Shown: positions 2,580 through 13,870 of the stretch, in pieces
Position numbering within the stretch: the first letter of the stretch is position 1
Layout of the letters: each line of letters opens with the position of its first letter
DNA from: Candidatus Eiseniibacteriota bacterium
Lineage (GTDB): Bacteria > Eisenbacteria > RBG-16-71-46
Assembly: GCA_031364845.1 (NCBI GenBank)
Contig: JANLWX010000019.1
Coordinates: 3,508-67,507 of the forward strand
Length of the DNA: 64,000 nt
Direction: 5' to 3'
Made by a program: the position numbers and the translations under genes
Notes under the pieces: model-generated
Databases searched by the model: none
Told to the model about the DNA's origin: nothing
The model's input: only the letters and a program-made list of their open reading frames with translations

Positions 2580-4289
2580 ATGACACCGAGGAATCTGTTC
2601 TCCTCAACGCTTGCGGCACTGTTCGTGGCCGGCGCGCTCGGCGCGTCGCTCGCGACGGCTTCGAGTCACCGCGAAGCCCCGGCGATCTCCAAGGATCCGA
2701 CCGCGGACAACACCGACGTCTACGCCTTCCGCAGCCCCGACAAGCCGAATACCGTGACGATGATCAGCAACTGGCTCCCGCTGCTCGAGCCGGCCGGCGG
2801 ACCGAACTTCTTCTCGTTCGACGACAAGGCCGTCTACACCATCATCGTCGACAACGCCGGTGATGCGCAGGATCACATCGTCTACGAATTCCGCTTCAAG
2901 ACCCACGTGCGCAACGGCAACACGTTCCTCTACAACACCGGCGCCGTGACCTCGCCGTCCGATCCCGATCTGAATGTCTATCAGACGTACTCGGTCAAGA
3001 AGATCGTCAACGGAAGCAGCACCACGATCGGCTCCGATCTGCTGACGCAGCCGAACCGCGTCGGACCCAAGTCGACGCCGAACATCAACGAGCTCGGCGA
3101 AGACGCCGTGCATAAGCTGTCGGACGGTTCGTATGTGTTCGCCGGCGAGCGCGACGATCCGTTCTTCGTGGATCTCGGCGGCGTGTTCGACCTGCTCACG
3201 ATCCGCAAGCTTCCGGGCGATCTCGGACAGGGCGTCGACGGTCTGCGCGGATTCAACACGCTGTCGATCGCGATCCAGGTGCCGATCGAGAAGCTCACGA
3301 AGGACGCCAAGAGCGCGAGCGCGACGGGCTTTCCGATCCTCGGCATCTATTCAACCACCGAGCGCGACGGCAAGCGCGTGTCGCGGCTCGGCGCCCCGCT
3401 CGTGAACGAGGTTGTGATTCCGCTCAAGGACAAGGACAAGTGGAACGCGAGCGATCCTGCCGATGACGGCCAGTTCCTGAGCTACGTCACGAACCCGGAA
3501 CTCGCGGGCCTGCTGAATGCGCTGTACGGCATCAGCGTTCCCCCGGCTCCCCGCAATGACCTGGTCGCGGTGTTCCTGACCGGTGTCGCCGGCCTGACCC
3601 AGCCTGCGGGCGGCACGCCGAACGAGATGCTGCGGCTCAACGTCTCGATTCCTCCGAGCAGCAACCCCAGCCGTCTCGGTGTGCTGGGCGGCGACCTCGC
3701 CGGATTCCCCAACGGCCGCCGGCTCGCGGACGACGTGACCGACATCGAGCTGCGCGCGGTCGCGGGTGTGCTCGTCAGCGGATACAACATCGCCCCGAAC
3801 AATCGTCTTGGTGACGGTGTCGACTTCAACGATCGCGCGTTCCTGAGGGAGTTCCCCTACGTCGCGCGTCCGTTCGATCCGGTGGCGCACAATCACCATC
3901 GCACCGAGCCCGCAAGCGGACCCGGCCCGGCGGCCGAGCGTCTCGACTCAGGACGTGCCGACGGCGAGAACACGATCATGGTCGAGTCCGAAGACTTCGT
4001 GGAAGGCGCCGATGAGGACTCGCCGCTCCAGATCCGCAGCTCGCAGCCGGCGAAGCGCGCGCTGCTGCGCTACACGCTGGCCCGTGAAGCGGCCGTGACA
4101 CTGCGCATCTTCGACGTCCAGGGTCGCAACGTGAAGACGCTGGTCGACGAGCGCAATCAGCCGGGCGCGATCGACGTCCAGTGGGACGGCTCCGATGACT
4201 TCGGCTCGTTCGCCGGCAACGGAGTCTTCTTTGCCCGTTACTCGGTCGACGGCAAGCTCGTGAACACGAAGAAGCTCGTGGTTCGCTGA
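2580..4289 (+). CDS. DUF4331-family secreted protein, copy 1, with FlgD-Ig/CTD-like tail
   Basis: Signal peptide followed by SSHREAP, DNTDVYAFRSP, AGERDDPFFVDL, RLGAPLVNEV, GFPNGRRLADDVTDI. AGGA RBS before ATG 2580. The ORF-track start at 576 is an antisense shadow extension. Confidence 0.9.
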   Translation: MTPRNLFSSTLAALFVAGALGASLATASSHREAPAISKDPTADNTDVYAFRSPDKPNTVTMISNWLPLLEPAGGPNFFSFDDKAVYTIIVDNAGDAQDHIVYEFRFKTHVRNGNTFLYNTGAVTSPSDPDLNVYQTYSVKKIVNGSSTTIGSDLLTQPNRVGPKSTPNINELGEDAVHKLSDGSYVFAGERDDPFFVDLGGVFDLLTIRKLPGDLGQGVDGLRGFNTLSIAIQVPIEKLTKDAKSASATGFPILGIYSTTERDGKRVSRLGAPLVNEVVIPLKDKDKWNASDPADDGQFLSYVTNPELAGLLNALYGISVPPAPRNDLVAVFLTGVAGLTQPAGGTPNEMLRLNVSIPPSSNPSRLGVLGGDLAGFPNGRRLADDVTDIELRAVAGVLVSGYNIAPNNRLGDGVDFNDRAFLREFPYVARPFDPVAHNHHRTEPASGPGPAAERLDSGRADGENTIMVESEDFVEGADEDSPLQIRSSQPAKRALLRYTLAREAAVTLRIFDVQGRNVKTLVDERNQPGAIDVQWDGSDDFGSFAGNGVFFARYSVDGKLVNTKKLVVR

Positions 4290-4313
4290 TAACGTTCATA
4301 TATTTGAAGTCCT

Positions 4314-4358
4314 GCGACGGCCCGGTCGGAAACTCGACCGGGCCGTTCGCGTTTCTCT
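4314..4358 (+). terminator. Rho-independent terminator
   Basis: Stem cggcccggtcg / cgaccgggccg with a 6-nt loop, followed by gtttctctt, just after the stop at 4289. Confidence 0.75.
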
Positions 4359-11582: not shown

Positions 11583-12320
11583 ATGACCTCCCGCCCGCTG
11601 CTCGCCCTGATCCTCGCCCTCGCGGCGGGCTTTGCGCTGCCTCCTCGGGGGGCGAGCGCCCGCGTGATGCTCGACTCCCTCCCACCCGACTCGGTCCGGG
11701 CCGCGGCGCCCGATTCCGCGGCGGACCCGCCGGCCGCAACACCCCGGGTCCGGCCGCGCTCGATGACGCCGACCTGAAGCGGCTGACCCGGCGAAGGCGC
11801 GCCGCTCCGTGGGGGCGGCCTCGACACTCCGCGCACGCTGTCGTTGCGCTGGATCGACACCGACCTCGAGCGCCCGCGCTGGCGGGCAACGGCGAGCGTG
11901 CGGGTGGTTCCCACGCTCCAGCTGGGTGTGGAGTGGAACCCGGTGGCCGAGGAGGTGGGCCCGATCGCGACCTGGTTCCTCTCGACCGAGACCGACCGGC
12001 GACCGGCCGTGTTCGTCGGGACCAGTTCCGACCGGATCGGCTCCCCGCCGCACACGCAGTCCTATTACCTGACGGTTGCCAAGAGCTTCGTCACGGTTCC
12101 GGTCGCGCCCTACGCCACGCTCAACTGGTCCGAATGGGACGACGCCATCAACGTTCCGTTCGGCATGCACGTCAGGCTTGGCTCAAACTTGTCACTGCAA
12201 CCGATGTACGACGGCCACCGCTCGCATATCCTTGGTACTTGGTCGAACAGCCGCGTGAGCGCGACGGTGATCTGGGCATGGTTCGAGACCATCGGATTCG
12301 CGGGTTCTGTCGGATTCTGA
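11583..12320 (+). CDS. Putative selenoprotein: outer-membrane beta-barrel with N-terminal U-x-x-U motif (two in-frame TGA at 11775 and 11784; 245 aa)
   Basis: Track ORFs 11583..11777 and 11844..12320 share one frame. Reading TGA as Sec gives signal peptide MTSRPLLALILALAAGFALPPRGASA, a Pro/Ala linker, MTPT-U65-SG-U68-PGEG, then about 12 amphipathic beta-strands ending in GFAGSVGF (terminal Phe). A SECIS-like hairpin follows the TGAs. Confidence 0.75.
11792..11823 (+). promoter_or_regulatory. Candidate bacterial SECIS element
   Basis: Upper stem gccgctcc(11801-08)/ggggcggc(11812-19) with apical loop GUG; lower stem cga/tcg. The loop starts 22 nt after the second UGA and 31 nt after the first. 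Confidence 0.65.
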
Positions 12321-12333
12321 GCGAGGAGACACG

Positions 12334-13029
12334 ATGAAGCGGTGGCTCGTGATGGCAGTGGCATTGGGCACTCTGGGGTTGGCGCCGGCCACGGTTCACG
12401 CCGGGAGCCCCGGGCTCACGGTGACCGTGGACGACGCGCCCAAGCGCGCGGTGTGCCTCGTGTGCCGCGTGAAAGAAGGCTCGACGCACGAAGAGCCTGT
12501 AAAGGCCGTCCGCATCCGCGACGGAAAGACCTATGCCTTCTGCCAGCAGGCCTGCGCCGAGGCGTTCGACGCCGATCCCGCCGCCTACCTGCCGCCCTCG
12601 CTTCCGCGCCCCGCGCCCGCCGTCAAAGCCGCGGACCTCAAAGGCACCGCGCTCGATTGGGAGCAGTACCGCGGGAAGATCGTCCTCATCGACTTCTGGG
12701 CGACCTGGTGCGCGCCGTGCCGCAAGTCGATGCCCGAGCTTCAGAAGCTGCACGACCAGTATTCGAGGGAAGGCTTCACGGTGCTCGGCCTGTCGATCGA
12801 CGAAGGCGGCCCGGCCAAGGTGAAGAAGTTCATGGCGGCAAAAAAGTACACCTATCCCATTGCGCTCGACTCCGAGAAGACCCCGACCTGGGAAGCCTAC
12901 GGAGTGAAGGGCATCCCTTCGGCGTACCTCGTGAATCGCGACGGGAAGGTCGTCGCCGAGTGGCGCGGTGCCGTCGATCCGGCGCAGATCGAAGCCGAGT
13001 TGAAGAAGCTGCTGGCCGAGGTGAACTGA
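12334..13029 (+). CDS. Periplasmic YHS/TRASH domain + TlpA-family thioredoxin fusion
   Basis: GAGGAG RBS 13 nt after the previous stop; signal peptide; CLVC...GKTYAFCQQACAEAFDADPAAY (YHS); VLIDFWATWCAPC...YGVKGIPSAYLVNRDG (TlpA). Confidence 0.9.
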   Translation: MKRWLVMAVALGTLGLAPATVHAGSPGLTVTVDDAPKRAVCLVCRVKEGSTHEEPVKAVRIRDGKTYAFCQQACAEAFDADPAAYLPPSLPRPAPAVKAADLKGTALDWEQYRGKIVLIDFWATWCAPCRKSMPELQKLHDQYSREGFTVLGLSIDEGGPAKVKKFMAAKKYTYPIALDSEKTPTWEAYGVKGIPSAYLVNRDGKVVAEWRGAVDPAQIEAELKKLLAEVN

Positions 13030-13213: not shown

Positions 13214-13870
13214 ATGATTCGCACGATTCGCGCGTCGGTACTCACGATTTCGGCCATCGCACTTGCCGCCGCTGCGGCGACCGCGGCGCCGGTCGCCTAT
13301 AAGATCGACAAGTCCCACTCCGATGTCGGCTTCAAGGTTCGTCACTTCTTCTCGAAGACCCCGGGACGCTTCAGCGACTTCTCGGGCATGATCAATCTCG
13401 ACGAGAAGAACCCGTCGGCCTCGTCGGTCGATGTGACGATCCAGACCGCCAGCATCCAGACCAACAACGAACGCCGCGACAATCACCTGCGCAGCGACGA
13501 CTTCTTCAACGCCGAGAAGTTTCCGACGATCACGTTCAAGAGCACGAAGATCACCCCCGTCGAGGGCAACAAGTTCAAGGTCGACGGCGATCTCACGATC
13601 CGTGACGTCACGAAGCCGGTGACGCTCGACGCGGAACTGGTCGGCATGGGCGCTGTGGGACAGTCGGGCACGCGCGCGGGATTCCAGGCGACCACCTCGG
13701 TCAATCGCAAGGACTACGGCGTGCTGTGGAACAAGACGCTCGACAACGGCGGCACGATGCTCGACGACATCGTCTACATCAATCTCGACGTCGAAGCGGT
13801 GAAGGACGAGCCGAAGAAGGATGCGCCTCCGGCAGCTCCGAAGGACGAGAAGACGACGGACAAGAAGTAA
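13214..13870 (+). CDS. yceI: YceI-family periplasmic protein
   Basis: Signal peptide; YKIDKSHSDVGFKVRH, RRDNHLRSDDFF, FPTITFKST, GDLTIRDVTKPV. Confidence 0.92.
   Translation: MIRTIRASVLTISAIALAAAAATAAPVAYKIDKSHSDVGFKVRHFFSKTPGRFSDFSGMINLDEKNPSASSVDVTIQTASIQTNNERRDNHLRSDDFFNAEKFPTITFKSTKITPVEGNKFKVDGDLTIRDVTKPVTLDAELVGMGAVGQSGTRAGFQATTSVNRKDYGVLWNKTLDNGGTMLDDIVYINLDVEAVKDEPKKDAPPAAPKDEKTTDKK

What the first reader, a model, noticed from the sequence alone, without database searches (positions are those of the whole stretch)
11792..11823. One SECIS-like hairpin positioned to serve both UGA codons
Seen: an 8-bp stem (one G-U pair) gccgctcc/ggggcggc closes a G-first loop GUG, with a short lower stem cga/tcg. 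The loop starts 22 nt after the second UGA and 31 nt after the first. Established: bacterial SECIS models put a G-containing apical loop roughly 16-37 nt after the UGA. Inference: a single SECIS decodes two UGAs 9 nt apart, an unusual recoding geometry. The GGG-GGC-GGC codon run may be shaped by the RNA structure.
Basis: partly seen in the sequence, partly recalled or inferred. Interest (0 to 1): 0.65.

Follow-up and report, generated by a model that had tools for sequence, protein, structure and literature searches.

The report
One SECIS hairpin, two selenocysteine codons
The hairpin is real and conserved: it is the selenocysteine-insertion signal of an unannotated, widespread outer-membrane-type protein whose two in-frame UGA codons (U-x-x-U) sit 14 and 23 nt upstream of it, so databases wrongly cut this protein in two.

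Summary
Observation confirmed. Window 11801-11819 forms GCCGCUCC-GUG-GGGGCGGC. It starts 14 nt after UGA2 (11784-86) and 23 nt after UGA1 (11775-77). Both UGAs are in frame in one gene, 11583-12320: signal peptide, T-U-S-G-U-PGEG, then a 12-stranded beta-barrel.

Thermodynamics in this one sequence is weak evidence. Comparison is decisive:
- 80/80 homologous loci from several phyla keep both TGAs.
- 76/82 sequences keep a 7-8 bp hairpin at the same place with a G-G/U-G loop. Pairing is 94%, with four pairs changed compensatorily.
- Synonymous codon choice is frozen only across the stem.
- Cys homologues (PT-C-A-G-C) lack the hairpin.
- A C-x-x-U variant has a hairpin of different sequence, also 14 nt after its UGA.
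- The genome encodes SelA, SelB, a Sec-containing SelD and one tRNA-Sec.
- All four bSECIS model criteria are met for both UGAs.

There is room for only one hairpin, so one SECIS serving both UGAs is the best reading. It is inferred, not shown, for UGA1.

The geometry has precedent: other U-x-x-U families, and a 2026 paper proposing one SECIS for such motifs. The protein family itself matches no Pfam, NCBIfam or Rfam model. It is a new member of a known kind and a good natural test case.

The parts
11583..12320 (+). Whole gene: 245-codon ORF read through two TGAs. Signal peptide, then a linker with T-U-S-G-U-PGEGAPLRGGG, then a ~160-aa beta-barrel ending SVGF; genuine stop TGA at 12318-12320.
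   Evidence: The same architecture with '2 TGA' inside is found in 80/80 loci and 12 relatives. AF2 model: barrel pLDDT >90.
11583..11660 (+). Predicted signal peptide MTSRPLLALILALAAGFALPPRGASA.
   Evidence: Read from the translation. In-frame hydrophobic N-termini stand upstream of the TGAs in most homologous loci. The cleavage site is inferred.
11775..11777 (+). UGA1, first Sec codon (U65); the hairpin base is 23 nt and the loop 31 nt downstream.
   Evidence: TGA in 80/80 loci. Aligns with Cys37 of Cys homologue P0135. Kept in independent metagenome contigs.
11784..11786 (+). UGA2, second Sec codon (U68), always followed by C (Pro codon); the hairpin base is 14 nt and the loop 22 nt downstream.
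   Evidence: Aligns with Cys40 of P0135. This is the only UGA in the C-x-x-U variant L108, with the same 14-nt spacer.
11787..11800 (+). 14-nt spacer (CCC GGC GAA GGC GC; P-G-E-G-A) between UGA2 and the stem.
   Evidence: Third codon positions vary freely here. Compare 11 nt in fdhA-like and 12 nt in selD of the same genome.
11801..11819 (+). SECIS-like hairpin. 5' arm 11801-11808, loop GUG 11809-11811, 3' arm 11812-11819. The conserved core is 7 bp (11802-11808 with 11812-11818).
   Evidence: The outer pair 11801-11819 is unpaired in 28/81 sequences.
11792..11794 (+). Not part of the conserved element.
   Evidence: The partner columns 53-55 of A2 are not conserved or complementary in homologues. 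RNAalifold does not predict it.
12334..13029 (+). Partner gene: secreted YHS domain + TlpA/ResA-like thioredoxin-fold protein (WCAPC).
   Evidence: Pfam/NCBIfam. Directly downstream in 72/80 loci. In Cys-form locus L104 the YHS-like part is fused to the barrel protein and a redoxin follows.

Best explanation
The hairpin at 11801-11819 is the bacterial selenocysteine insertion sequence (SECIS) of a previously unannotated selenoprotein gene (11583-12320). The gene carries two Sec codons in a U-x-x-U motif.

Shown:
- The two UGAs, the reading frame across them and the hairpin are conserved together in at least 80 species of several phyla.
- The stem is maintained by compensatory and synonymous-site selection.
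- Cys-for-Sec homologues exist at both positions and lack the hairpin.
- The organism has SelA, SelB, SelD and tRNA-Sec.

Inferred mechanism: SelB.GTP.Sec-tRNASec binds the G-G/U-G apical loop. When UGA2 is in the A site the hairpin sits just outside the mRNA entry channel. Its 14-nt spacer compares with 11-12 nt in fdhA and selD of the same genome, so this is canonical decoding.

UGA1 lies 9 nt further upstream, 23 nt from the stem and 31 nt from the loop. That is still inside the 16-37 nt range of the bSECIS model. No other hairpin can fit, so the same element must also recode UGA1. This requires a second SelB ternary complex to load within three codons.

The peptide segment A-P-L-R-G-S-G is largely dictated by the RNA.

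The product is probably an outer-membrane 12-stranded barrel with a periplasmic N-terminal diselenide/selenolate site. That site would be serviced by the co-transcribed YHS-TlpA thiol:disulfide oxidoreductase (metal or redox relay; function inferred).
For: - Both TGAs are in frame in 80/80 loci, motif PT-U-x-G-U-PGEGAPLRGSG, with 181 codons from U1 to the stop in nearly all. Many of the genes end in TGA, so TGA is still a stop in these genomes.
- Hairpin census: 76/82 have a 7-8 bp stem 14-15 nt after UGA2, with loop GGG (59) or GUG (17).
- Pairing is 94.1%. Four pairs have double changes: C-G to U-A in four sequences via the synonymous CTT/GGA, C-G to G-C in L057 with amino-acid changes L>V and S>T, and G-C to A-U in L078 and L079. 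0/500 shuffles reach the score, and slid controls give 37-70% pairing.
- Codon entropy is 0.31-0.83 bits at P74-S78 against 1.2-2.0 bits at other conserved residues. Leu is never CTG, Arg never CGC, Gly77 almost never GGC.
- Subgroup L026/L048/L055 has a different peptide (APVGG) and its own hairpin at 10-11 nt.
- C-x-x-U variant L108 (46% GC): an unrelated stem sequence GUUCCUCG-GUU-CGGGGAGC, also 14 nt after the UGA.
- Cys homologues have PT-C-A-G-C-AGEA and no hairpin at the homologous place.
- Sec machinery: SelA, SelB at 340 bits, SelD with an in-frame TGA, and one tRNA-Sec(UCA) next to selD. 44/46 other carrier genomes have a strong tRNA-Sec.
- The bSECIS criteria (PMC13188914) are all met: loop 3 nt, stem 8 bp, G first in the loop followed by U/G, 22 and 31 nt spacing, -14.0 kcal/mol.
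- Independent metagenome contigs keep both TGAs.
Against: - There is no direct evidence of Sec insertion at either codon (no proteomics, labelling or reporter).
- In context the window's own sequence prefers other folds, and its MFE is not better than shuffles.
- The two bona fide SECIS elements of this genome sit 11-12 nt after their UGA. The 23-nt spacing for UGA1 is therefore atypical here.
- No U-x-x-C variant was found that would show the hairpin working at that distance alone.
- A competing helix (window 11779-11783 with 11801-11805) is 89% pairable, with weak covariation.
- Part of the nucleotide conservation could reflect peptide constraint.
Confidence: 0.8

Rival explanations
1. The hairpin is a SECIS only for UGA2, which has canonical spacing. 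UGA1 is decoded another way: by inefficient SelB action without proper tethering, by near-cognate read-through (Trp/Cys/Arg), or by a second factor.
For: In-genome SECIS elements sit 11-12 nt after their UGA, and the hairpin is 14 nt after UGA2 but 23 nt after UGA1. The C-x-x-U variant keeps the hairpin at the UGA2 distance. No U-x-x-C variant was seen.
Against: UGA1 is invariant in 80/80 loci and in about 46 genomes of the phylum, and it aligns with an invariant Cys in Cys forms. Selection therefore demands a Cys-like residue there, which near-cognate read-through would not supply reliably. The 31 nt to the loop is inside the 16-37 nt range of known bSECIS elements.
Confidence: 0.12
2. One or both UGAs are decoded as Cys by a SECIS-dependent tRNA-ReC (selC*)-type tRNA rather than as Sec.
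For: PMC13582414 reports tRNA-ReC-like genes enriched in genomes with UXXU hydrogenases.
Against: This genome, and each of 38 relatives, shows exactly one strong tRNA-Sec match. The weaker matches are ordinary Ser/Leu/Tyr tRNAs. The 99-nt 'tRNA-Ala(cgc)' that aragorn calls has a poor fold. A divergent allo-tRNA could still escape RF01852.
Confidence: 0.03
3. The nucleotide conservation reflects only a conserved peptide (PGEGAPLRGSG); the stem is a by-product and not a functional RNA element.
For: The amino-acid motif is nearly invariant. Ser148 elsewhere in the gene also uses only AGY codons.
Against: Synonymous sites are frozen only in the stem codons, and against the genome's usual codon preferences. 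There are compensatory double changes, one of them with amino-acid replacements on both arms (L057). Three sequences with another peptide, and the C-x-x-U variant, build different hairpins at the same place. Cys forms lose both the peptide and the hairpin.
Confidence: 0.03
4. No recoding happens. The TGAs are stops, giving two separate ORFs, a pseudogene or an assembly error, and the hairpin is chance or a regulatory or terminator structure.
For: Public gene callers all start the protein after the TGAs, at 155-169 aa. Context folding is not significant.
Against: A signal peptide upstream and a barrel without one downstream share a frame in 80/80 loci. The called starts are inconsistent (M, L or V at different places). 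Cys homologues are contiguous. Independent assemblies keep the TGAs. There is no U-tract after the hairpin.
Confidence: 0.02

Closest known systems
Bacterial SECIS elements of the bSECISearch consensus type (e.g. E. coli fdhF; fdhA-like and selD of this same genome)
   Same: Coding-region stem-loop just 3' of an in-frame UGA. Short G+C-rich upper stem, small apical loop with G then G/U. For UGA2 the spacer is of canonical size (14 nt against 11-12 nt).
   Different: Two UGA codons 9 nt apart share it, so for UGA1 the stem is 23 nt away. The loop is only 3 nt (G-K-G), or 5 nt if the closing C-G pair opens. There is no conserved lower stem or bulged U. The sequence is unrelated to the fdhA and selD hairpins.
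[quoted passage not shown]
   Same: Two putative Sec codons in a U-x-x-U motif derived from CxxC, one predicted SECIS downstream of both, and related CXXU forms with the same SECIS. The authors raise single-SECIS decoding of both UGAs.
   Different: A different protein (cytoplasmic Ni-binding site against a secreted barrel protein). In the carrier genomes examined here U-x-x-U is the only state found, rather than sporadic. No tRNA-ReC candidate is present in this genome.
[quoted passage not shown]
   Same: Two Sec residues replacing a CxxC redox or metal site.
   Different: No sequence relationship: the protein matches no NCBIfam or Pfam family at E<=0.1 / 0.01. It has a beta-barrel fold, not a thioredoxin or HMA fold.
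Small 12-stranded outer-membrane barrels (KdgM/NanC porins, FapF barrel)
   Same: The AF2 model has about 12 antiparallel strands, a C-terminal aromatic residue and a signal peptide. Foldseek TM (target-normalised) is 0.63 to KdgM (4fqe/4pr7) and 0.49 to NanC.
   Different: 8-11% identity and no family-level sequence match. It has an N-terminal ~55-residue extension carrying the U-x-x-U site.
Outer-membrane selenoproteins already predicted (GSU2204/MtrB-PioB family barrel NF041027; TonB-dependent receptor, deep-Sep)
   Same: Sec in an outer-membrane beta-barrel protein.
   Different: Those have one Sec and belong to unrelated families. This protein has no hit to them.

Membership tests
bacterial SECIS (bSECIS consensus model, as stated in PMC13188914) | 3-9 nt apical loop on a 4-16 bp upper stem | tested here: met
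   3-nt loop and 8-bp stem in the window; 7-8 bp in 76/82 homologues.
bacterial SECIS (bSECIS consensus model, as stated in PMC13188914) | G in one of the first two loop positions, usually followed by G or U | tested here: met
   The loop is GUG here; in the family it is GGG (59) or GUG (17). The middle position is never C or A: Arg76 is CGG/CGT, never CGC.
bacterial SECIS (bSECIS consensus model, as stated in PMC13188914) | [quoted passage not shown] | tested here: met
   22 nt for UGA2 and 31 nt for UGA1.
bacterial SECIS (bSECIS consensus model, as stated in PMC13188914) | MFE <= -7.5 kcal/mol | tested here: met
   -14.0 kcal/mol for the 19-mer. In wider context the fold competes with others.
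bacterial SECIS (bSECIS consensus model, as stated in PMC13188914) | Structure conserved with covariation in TGA-containing homologues and lost in Cys homologues | tested here: met
bacterial SECIS (bSECIS consensus model, as stated in PMC13188914) | Binds SelB and directs Sec insertion at the upstream UGA(s) | not testable with these tools
   Needs EMSA, a reporter, 75Se labelling or MS.
selenoprotein gene | In-frame TGA conserved among homologues, with conserved coding sequence on both sides | tested here: met
   80/80 loci and 12/12 relatives with '2 TGA'.
selenoprotein gene | Homologues with Cys aligned to the TGA position(s) | tested here: met
   P0133, P0135, P0144, P0156, P0162 and P0164 carry PT-C-A-G-C. 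BLASTP aligns U65/U68 with C37/C40.
selenoprotein gene | Host genome has selA, selB, selD and tRNA-Sec | tested here: met
   44/46 other carrier genomes have tRNA-Sec.
Rfam RNA families | Match at gathering score | tested here: not met
   No Rfam 15 family matches anywhere in the window.
known U-x-x-U selenoprotein families (NF041115, FmdB TIGR02605, Prx-like PF00578) | HMM match of the protein | tested here: not met
   0 NCBIfam families at E<=0.1 and 0 Pfam families at E<=0.01 for the read-through protein.
KdgM/NanC-type 12-stranded outer-membrane barrels | Fold similarity and family-level sequence match | tested here: inconclusive
   Foldseek probability 1.0 and TMt up to 0.63, but 8-11% identity and no Pfam hit.

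The most novel reading that the evidence does not exclude
A single, minimal (7-bp, 3-nt-loop) bacterial SECIS is used twice in quick succession, recoding two UGAs only three codons apart at 23-nt and 14-nt spacings. This arrangement is fixed in a family found in at least 182 species-level genomes. If so, SelB tethering tolerates a 9-nt change of distance, and a second SelB.GTP.Sec-tRNA must reload on the same hairpin within about three elongation cycles. The product would be an outer-membrane barrel with a periplasmic diselenide or bis-selenolate site, recycled by a dedicated YHS-TlpA partner. That would be a selenium-based envelope metal/redox relay with no described counterpart.
Probability: 0.6. 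Interest if true: 0.65.

Novelty: new member of a known kind. Interest (0 to 1): 0.55.

Why it matters
Annotation. Public gene calls cut this protein at the UGAs: 514 clusters of 155-169 aa with no signal peptide, and some read with TGA=W. A whole family, found in at least 182 species-level genomes of Eisenbacteria, Latescibacterota, Acidobacteriota and other phyla, is therefore mis-annotated and is missing from the selenoprotein resources I checked (NCBIfam models and the 2022 and 2026 review tables).

Mechanism. Whether one bacterial SECIS can serve two closely spaced UGAs is an open question, raised in 2026 for hydrogenases. This family offers an unusually clean natural series in which to test it:
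- CxxC forms without the hairpin.
- A CxxU form with a hairpin at 14 nt.
- UxxU forms with the same hairpin.
- A short element of about 60 nt that can be moved into a reporter.

Biology. A Sec pair at the periplasmic end of a small outer-membrane barrel is always paired with a YHS-TlpA reductase. This points to an undescribed selenium-dependent envelope function.

Tried and rejected
- Single-sequence folding with flanks is not informative at about 75% local GC. The MFE differs from the conserved hairpin and is no better than shuffles.
- A genome-wide scan for in-frame TGA plus ORF continuity plus hairpin gave 299 candidates, which is useless in a 65% GC genome. I used family searches instead to get two bona fide SECIS comparators, selD and fdhA-like.
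- The metagenome pattern scan for a U-x-x-C variant used too loose a pattern.
- Phylum-wide pattern scans (206 genomes) gave 3 U-x-x-C-like and several C-x-x-U-like matches. All proved to be chance, with no barrel and extra stops.
- The alternative helix 11779-11783/11801-05 is 89% pairable with weak covariation. It cannot exist while either UGA is in the A site, so it is left unexplained.
- Genome-wide TGA reassignment is rejected. The same genes commonly end in TGA, and Cys rather than Trp or Gly aligns with the TGAs.
- A tRNA-ReC-type second selC was not found.
- UniRef's 'DUF3570' label on one homologue is not reproduced by the Pfam scan.
- No RNA runs hold this stretch, only DNA metagenomes.

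Full report
**1. What is in the sequence.**
Window 11583-12320 (+) is one reading frame interrupted only by TGA at 11775-11777 and 11784-11786. Upstream lies a typical signal peptide, MTSRPLLALILALAAGFALPPRGASA. Downstream lies a 158-residue domain ending SVGF. Read through, the junction is ...SMTPT-U-S-G-U-PGEGAPLRGGGLD...

It has 8 bp, one of them U-G. The loop starts 22 nt after UGA2 and 31 nt after UGA1.

Thermodynamics and chance in this one sequence:
- Alone, the 19-mer folds at -14.0 kcal/mol, z = -3.2, with 0/200 shuffles as good.
- With 44-81 nt of context the MFE is no better than shuffles (z -0.07 to +1.4) and uses other pairings.
- In this 65% GC window, a qualifying hairpin of 8 bp or more falls in the 22-nt slot behind a given UGA about 2% of the time.

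One sequence alone is therefore only suggestive.

**2. Comparative evidence for the gene.**
- A protein search returned 514 clusters, essentially all 155-169 aa and covering only the part after the TGAs. Their called starts are inconsistent and none has a signal peptide.
- DNA of 80 homologous loci came from species-level genomes titled Candidatus Eisenbacteria, Latescibacterota, Thermoanaerobaculia/Acidobacteriota, KSB1, Calditrichia, Krumholzibacteriia, Poribacteria, Gemmatimonadetes and others; 182 genomes matched in all.
- In 80/80 of these loci both TGAs stand in frame in the motif PT-U-x-G-U-PGEGAPLRGSG, with a hydrophobic N-terminus upstream in most.
- The distance from U1 to the stop is 181 codons in nearly all. 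Many of these genes, including the window's, end in TGA. TGA therefore remains a stop codon in these organisms.
- Among 41 relatives of the window's genome, 13 carry the gene, each reported with '2 TGA' inside.
- Independent sediment metagenome assemblies keep both TGAs. The two variant positions they show, 11810 U>G and 11814 G>A, are simply the family consensus: a GGG loop and a U-A pair instead of U-G.

**3. Comparative evidence for the hairpin.**
Alignment A2 holds 82 sequences without gaps.
- 76 of them have a 7-8 bp stem starting 14-15 nt after UGA2, with loop GGG (59) or GUG (17).
- For the 8 pairs, 94.1% of cells are paired, and four pairs show changes on both sides.
- All five measures beat the shuffles; four are never reached in 500 and the fifth is reached in 8. 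Slid controls give 37-70% pairing.

The compensatory events are instructive:
- CTC/GGG to CTT/GGA (C-G to U-A, both synonymous) in L010, L074, L077 and L079.
- CTC/AGC to GTC/ACC in L057 (C-G to G-C, changing Leu to Val and Ser to Thr).
- CCG/AGC to CCA/AGT (G-C to A-U) in L078 and L079.

The outer pair (11801-11819) is unpaired in 28/81 distinct sequences, so the conserved core is 7 bp.

Codon usage tells the same story:
- Codon entropy is 0.31-0.83 bits at P74, L75, R76, G77 and S78. At other equally conserved Gly, Pro, Arg, Thr and Ser positions of the gene it is about 1.2-2.0 bits.
- Leu75 is never CTG, Arg76 is never CGC, and Gly77 is almost never GGC. These codons are common at other positions of the same gene.
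- The spacer codons (G70, E71, G72) vary freely.

In most homologues the run is GGG-AGC-GGC; the window's GGC replaces a U-A pair with U-G.

**4. Three natural controls.**
- (a) L026, L048 and L055 have another peptide (APVGG) and build their own 7-8 bp hairpin 10-11 nt after UGA2.
- (b) L108 comes from a 46% GC organism and is a C-x-x-U form (TGT ... TGA). It carries GUUCCUCG-GUU-CGGGGAGC, a hairpin of unrelated sequence, again 14 nt after its single UGA.
- (c) Cys forms exist with PT-C-A-G-C-AGEA: P0133, P0135, P0144, P0156, P0162 and P0164. BLASTP puts U65 and U68 opposite C37 and C40 of P0135. Their DNA has no hairpin at the homologous place, and the peptide there is variable.

Presence with UGA and absence with UGY is the classical signature of a SECIS.

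**5. Sec machinery.**
- The window's genome encodes SelA (468 bits) and SelB (340 bits, over cut-off).
- Its SelD itself contains an in-frame TGA.
- It has one tRNA-Sec(UCA) beside selD.
- An fdhA-like gene has the canonical ...CNRT-U-H... site.
- 44 of 46 other genomes carrying the gene have a tRNA-Sec scoring above 64 bits. So do 38/41 relatives, one each.

The two bona fide SECIS elements of this genome serve as yardsticks:
- fdhA-like: 11-nt spacer, 7-bp stem, GGUCU loop.
- selD: 12-nt spacer, 5-bp stem, GUC loop.

The hairpin studied here is the same kind of object at a 14-nt spacer from UGA2.

**6. Does one element serve both UGAs?**
The criteria of the bSECIS consensus model, as quoted in PMC13188914, are these:
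- loop of 3-9 nt and stem of 4-16 bp;
- G in the first two loop positions;
- 16-37 nt from the UGA to the loop;
- MFE <= -7.5 kcal/mol.

All four are met for UGA2 (22 nt) and for UGA1 (31 nt).

Only 6 nt separate the UGAs, and the hairpin fills the remaining part of the permitted window. There is no room for a second element, and none is conserved. UGA1 is as invariant as UGA2 and corresponds to an invariant Cys.

The most economical reading is that the same hairpin recodes both. This step is inferred. The 23-nt stem distance for UGA1 is about twice that of the in-genome examples. I found no U-x-x-C form that would show the hairpin acting at that distance alone:
- The phylum scan of 206 genomes gave about 46 U-x-x-U carriers and no genuine single-UGA forms.
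- The one metagenome scan used too loose a pattern.

A SECIS-dependent Cys-inserting tRNA-ReC, discussed for UXXU hydrogenases in PMC13582414, has no candidate gene here.

**7. What the protein is.**
- AlphaFold2 on a 56-sequence alignment gives a confident barrel of about 12 strands (pLDDT >90 over residues 84-245). The Sec-bearing N-terminal extension has low confidence.
- Foldseek finds transmembrane barrels: designed TMBs, FapF, KdgM (TMt 0.63) and NanC.
- No Pfam or NCBIfam family matches.
- A gene for a secreted YHS + TlpA/ResA-like thioredoxin-fold protein follows directly in 72/80 loci. Many loci have a further redoxin upstream.
- In Cys forms P0144 and P0164, and in Sec-form locus L063, YHS-like domains are fused to the barrel protein itself.

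By the usual topology of even-stranded barrels the N-terminal extension is periplasmic. I therefore propose, as inference, a diselenide/bis-selenolate redox or metal site kept reduced by the TlpA partner.

**8. Comparison with the known.**
- U-x-x-U motifs are listed for a Prx-like family, an NF041115 metal-binding protein and an FmdB-family protein.
- In September 2026 they were also described for group 4 [NiFeSe] hydrogenases. Those authors explicitly raise decoding of both UGAs by one downstream SECIS.
- Outer-membrane selenoproteins are also on record: the MtrB/PioB-type barrel and a TonB-dependent receptor.

The recoding geometry is therefore not categorically new. What is new is this family. 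It is absent from Pfam, NCBIfam and Rfam and from the review tables I searched. It shows only the U-x-x-U state in every carrier genome examined, and it has an unusually well-supported minimal SECIS. I class it as a new member of a known kind, with moderate interest as a natural test bed for an open mechanistic question.

Noticed in passing
window 11779-11783 with 11801-11805 (A2 columns 11-15 / 33-37): The codons between the two UGAs (AGC GGC) can pair with the 5' arm of the SECIS stem. This alternative helix is 89% pairable across 82 sequences with weak covariation (score 0/500 shuffles, though the pair count is not significant). It excludes the main hairpin and cannot exist while either UGA is in the A site. 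Its purpose is unknown and it may be GGC-periodicity noise.
   Followed up: partly
L061:1743 and 2931; G081 C18:2435-3142 and 3620-4342; G074 C144: Some genomes carry two tandem or nearby paralogues of the 2-Sec barrel gene, each with both TGAs. The second L061 copy has a weaker 6-bp stem.
   Followed up: no
P0071 (181 aa); P0172, P0205, P0147: Some homologues lack the whole U-x-x-U/CxxC segment: the signal peptide runs almost directly into the barrel. The Sec module is therefore dispensable or lost in some lineages.
   Followed up: no
P0233, P0138: Public gene calls exist in which these TGAs were read as Trp (table-4-style calling), giving 'APT-W-SG-W-PGEG'. This is a second kind of database mis-annotation of the family.
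   Followed up: partly
window 11767-11826: Contig depth in four sediment metagenomes spikes 3-4 fold over just this ~60-nt stretch. Contigs of other organisms align only here, so the UGA-UGA-SECIS segment is conserved at nucleotide level among co-occurring species.
   Followed up: partly
G000 C122:15045-16230 and C88:15336-16460: SelD of this genome is itself a selenoprotein (VACAG-U-ASK), and tRNA-Sec lies immediately beside it. An fdhA-like molybdopterin enzyme has a canonical Sec site with an fdhF-like SECIS (11-nt spacer, GGUCU loop).
   Followed up: yes
L002:1793-2551 and many other loci: A second TlpA-like redoxin gene (WATWCPPC) often lies just upstream of the barrel gene, giving 136 redoxin ORFs in 79 loci. 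The window instead has a divergent Zn-peptidase/ATP-grasp pair upstream.
   Followed up: no
L104 (P0144), P0164, L063:~100-445: YHS/TRASH-like metal-binding domains are fused to the N-terminus of the barrel protein in some Cys forms and in one Sec form. These are Rosetta-stone links between the barrel and the YHS-TlpA partner.
   Followed up: partly
G000 C226:987-1085: Aragorn calls a 99-nt 'tRNA-Ala(cgc)' with a mismatched acceptor stem and a long extra arm. RF01852 does not match it. It is probably a false positive but is odd.
   Followed up: partly
window 13214-13870: A YceI-like gene follows the YHS-TlpA gene here but is found in only 1 of 80 homologous loci, so it is not part of the conserved module.
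   Followed up: yes
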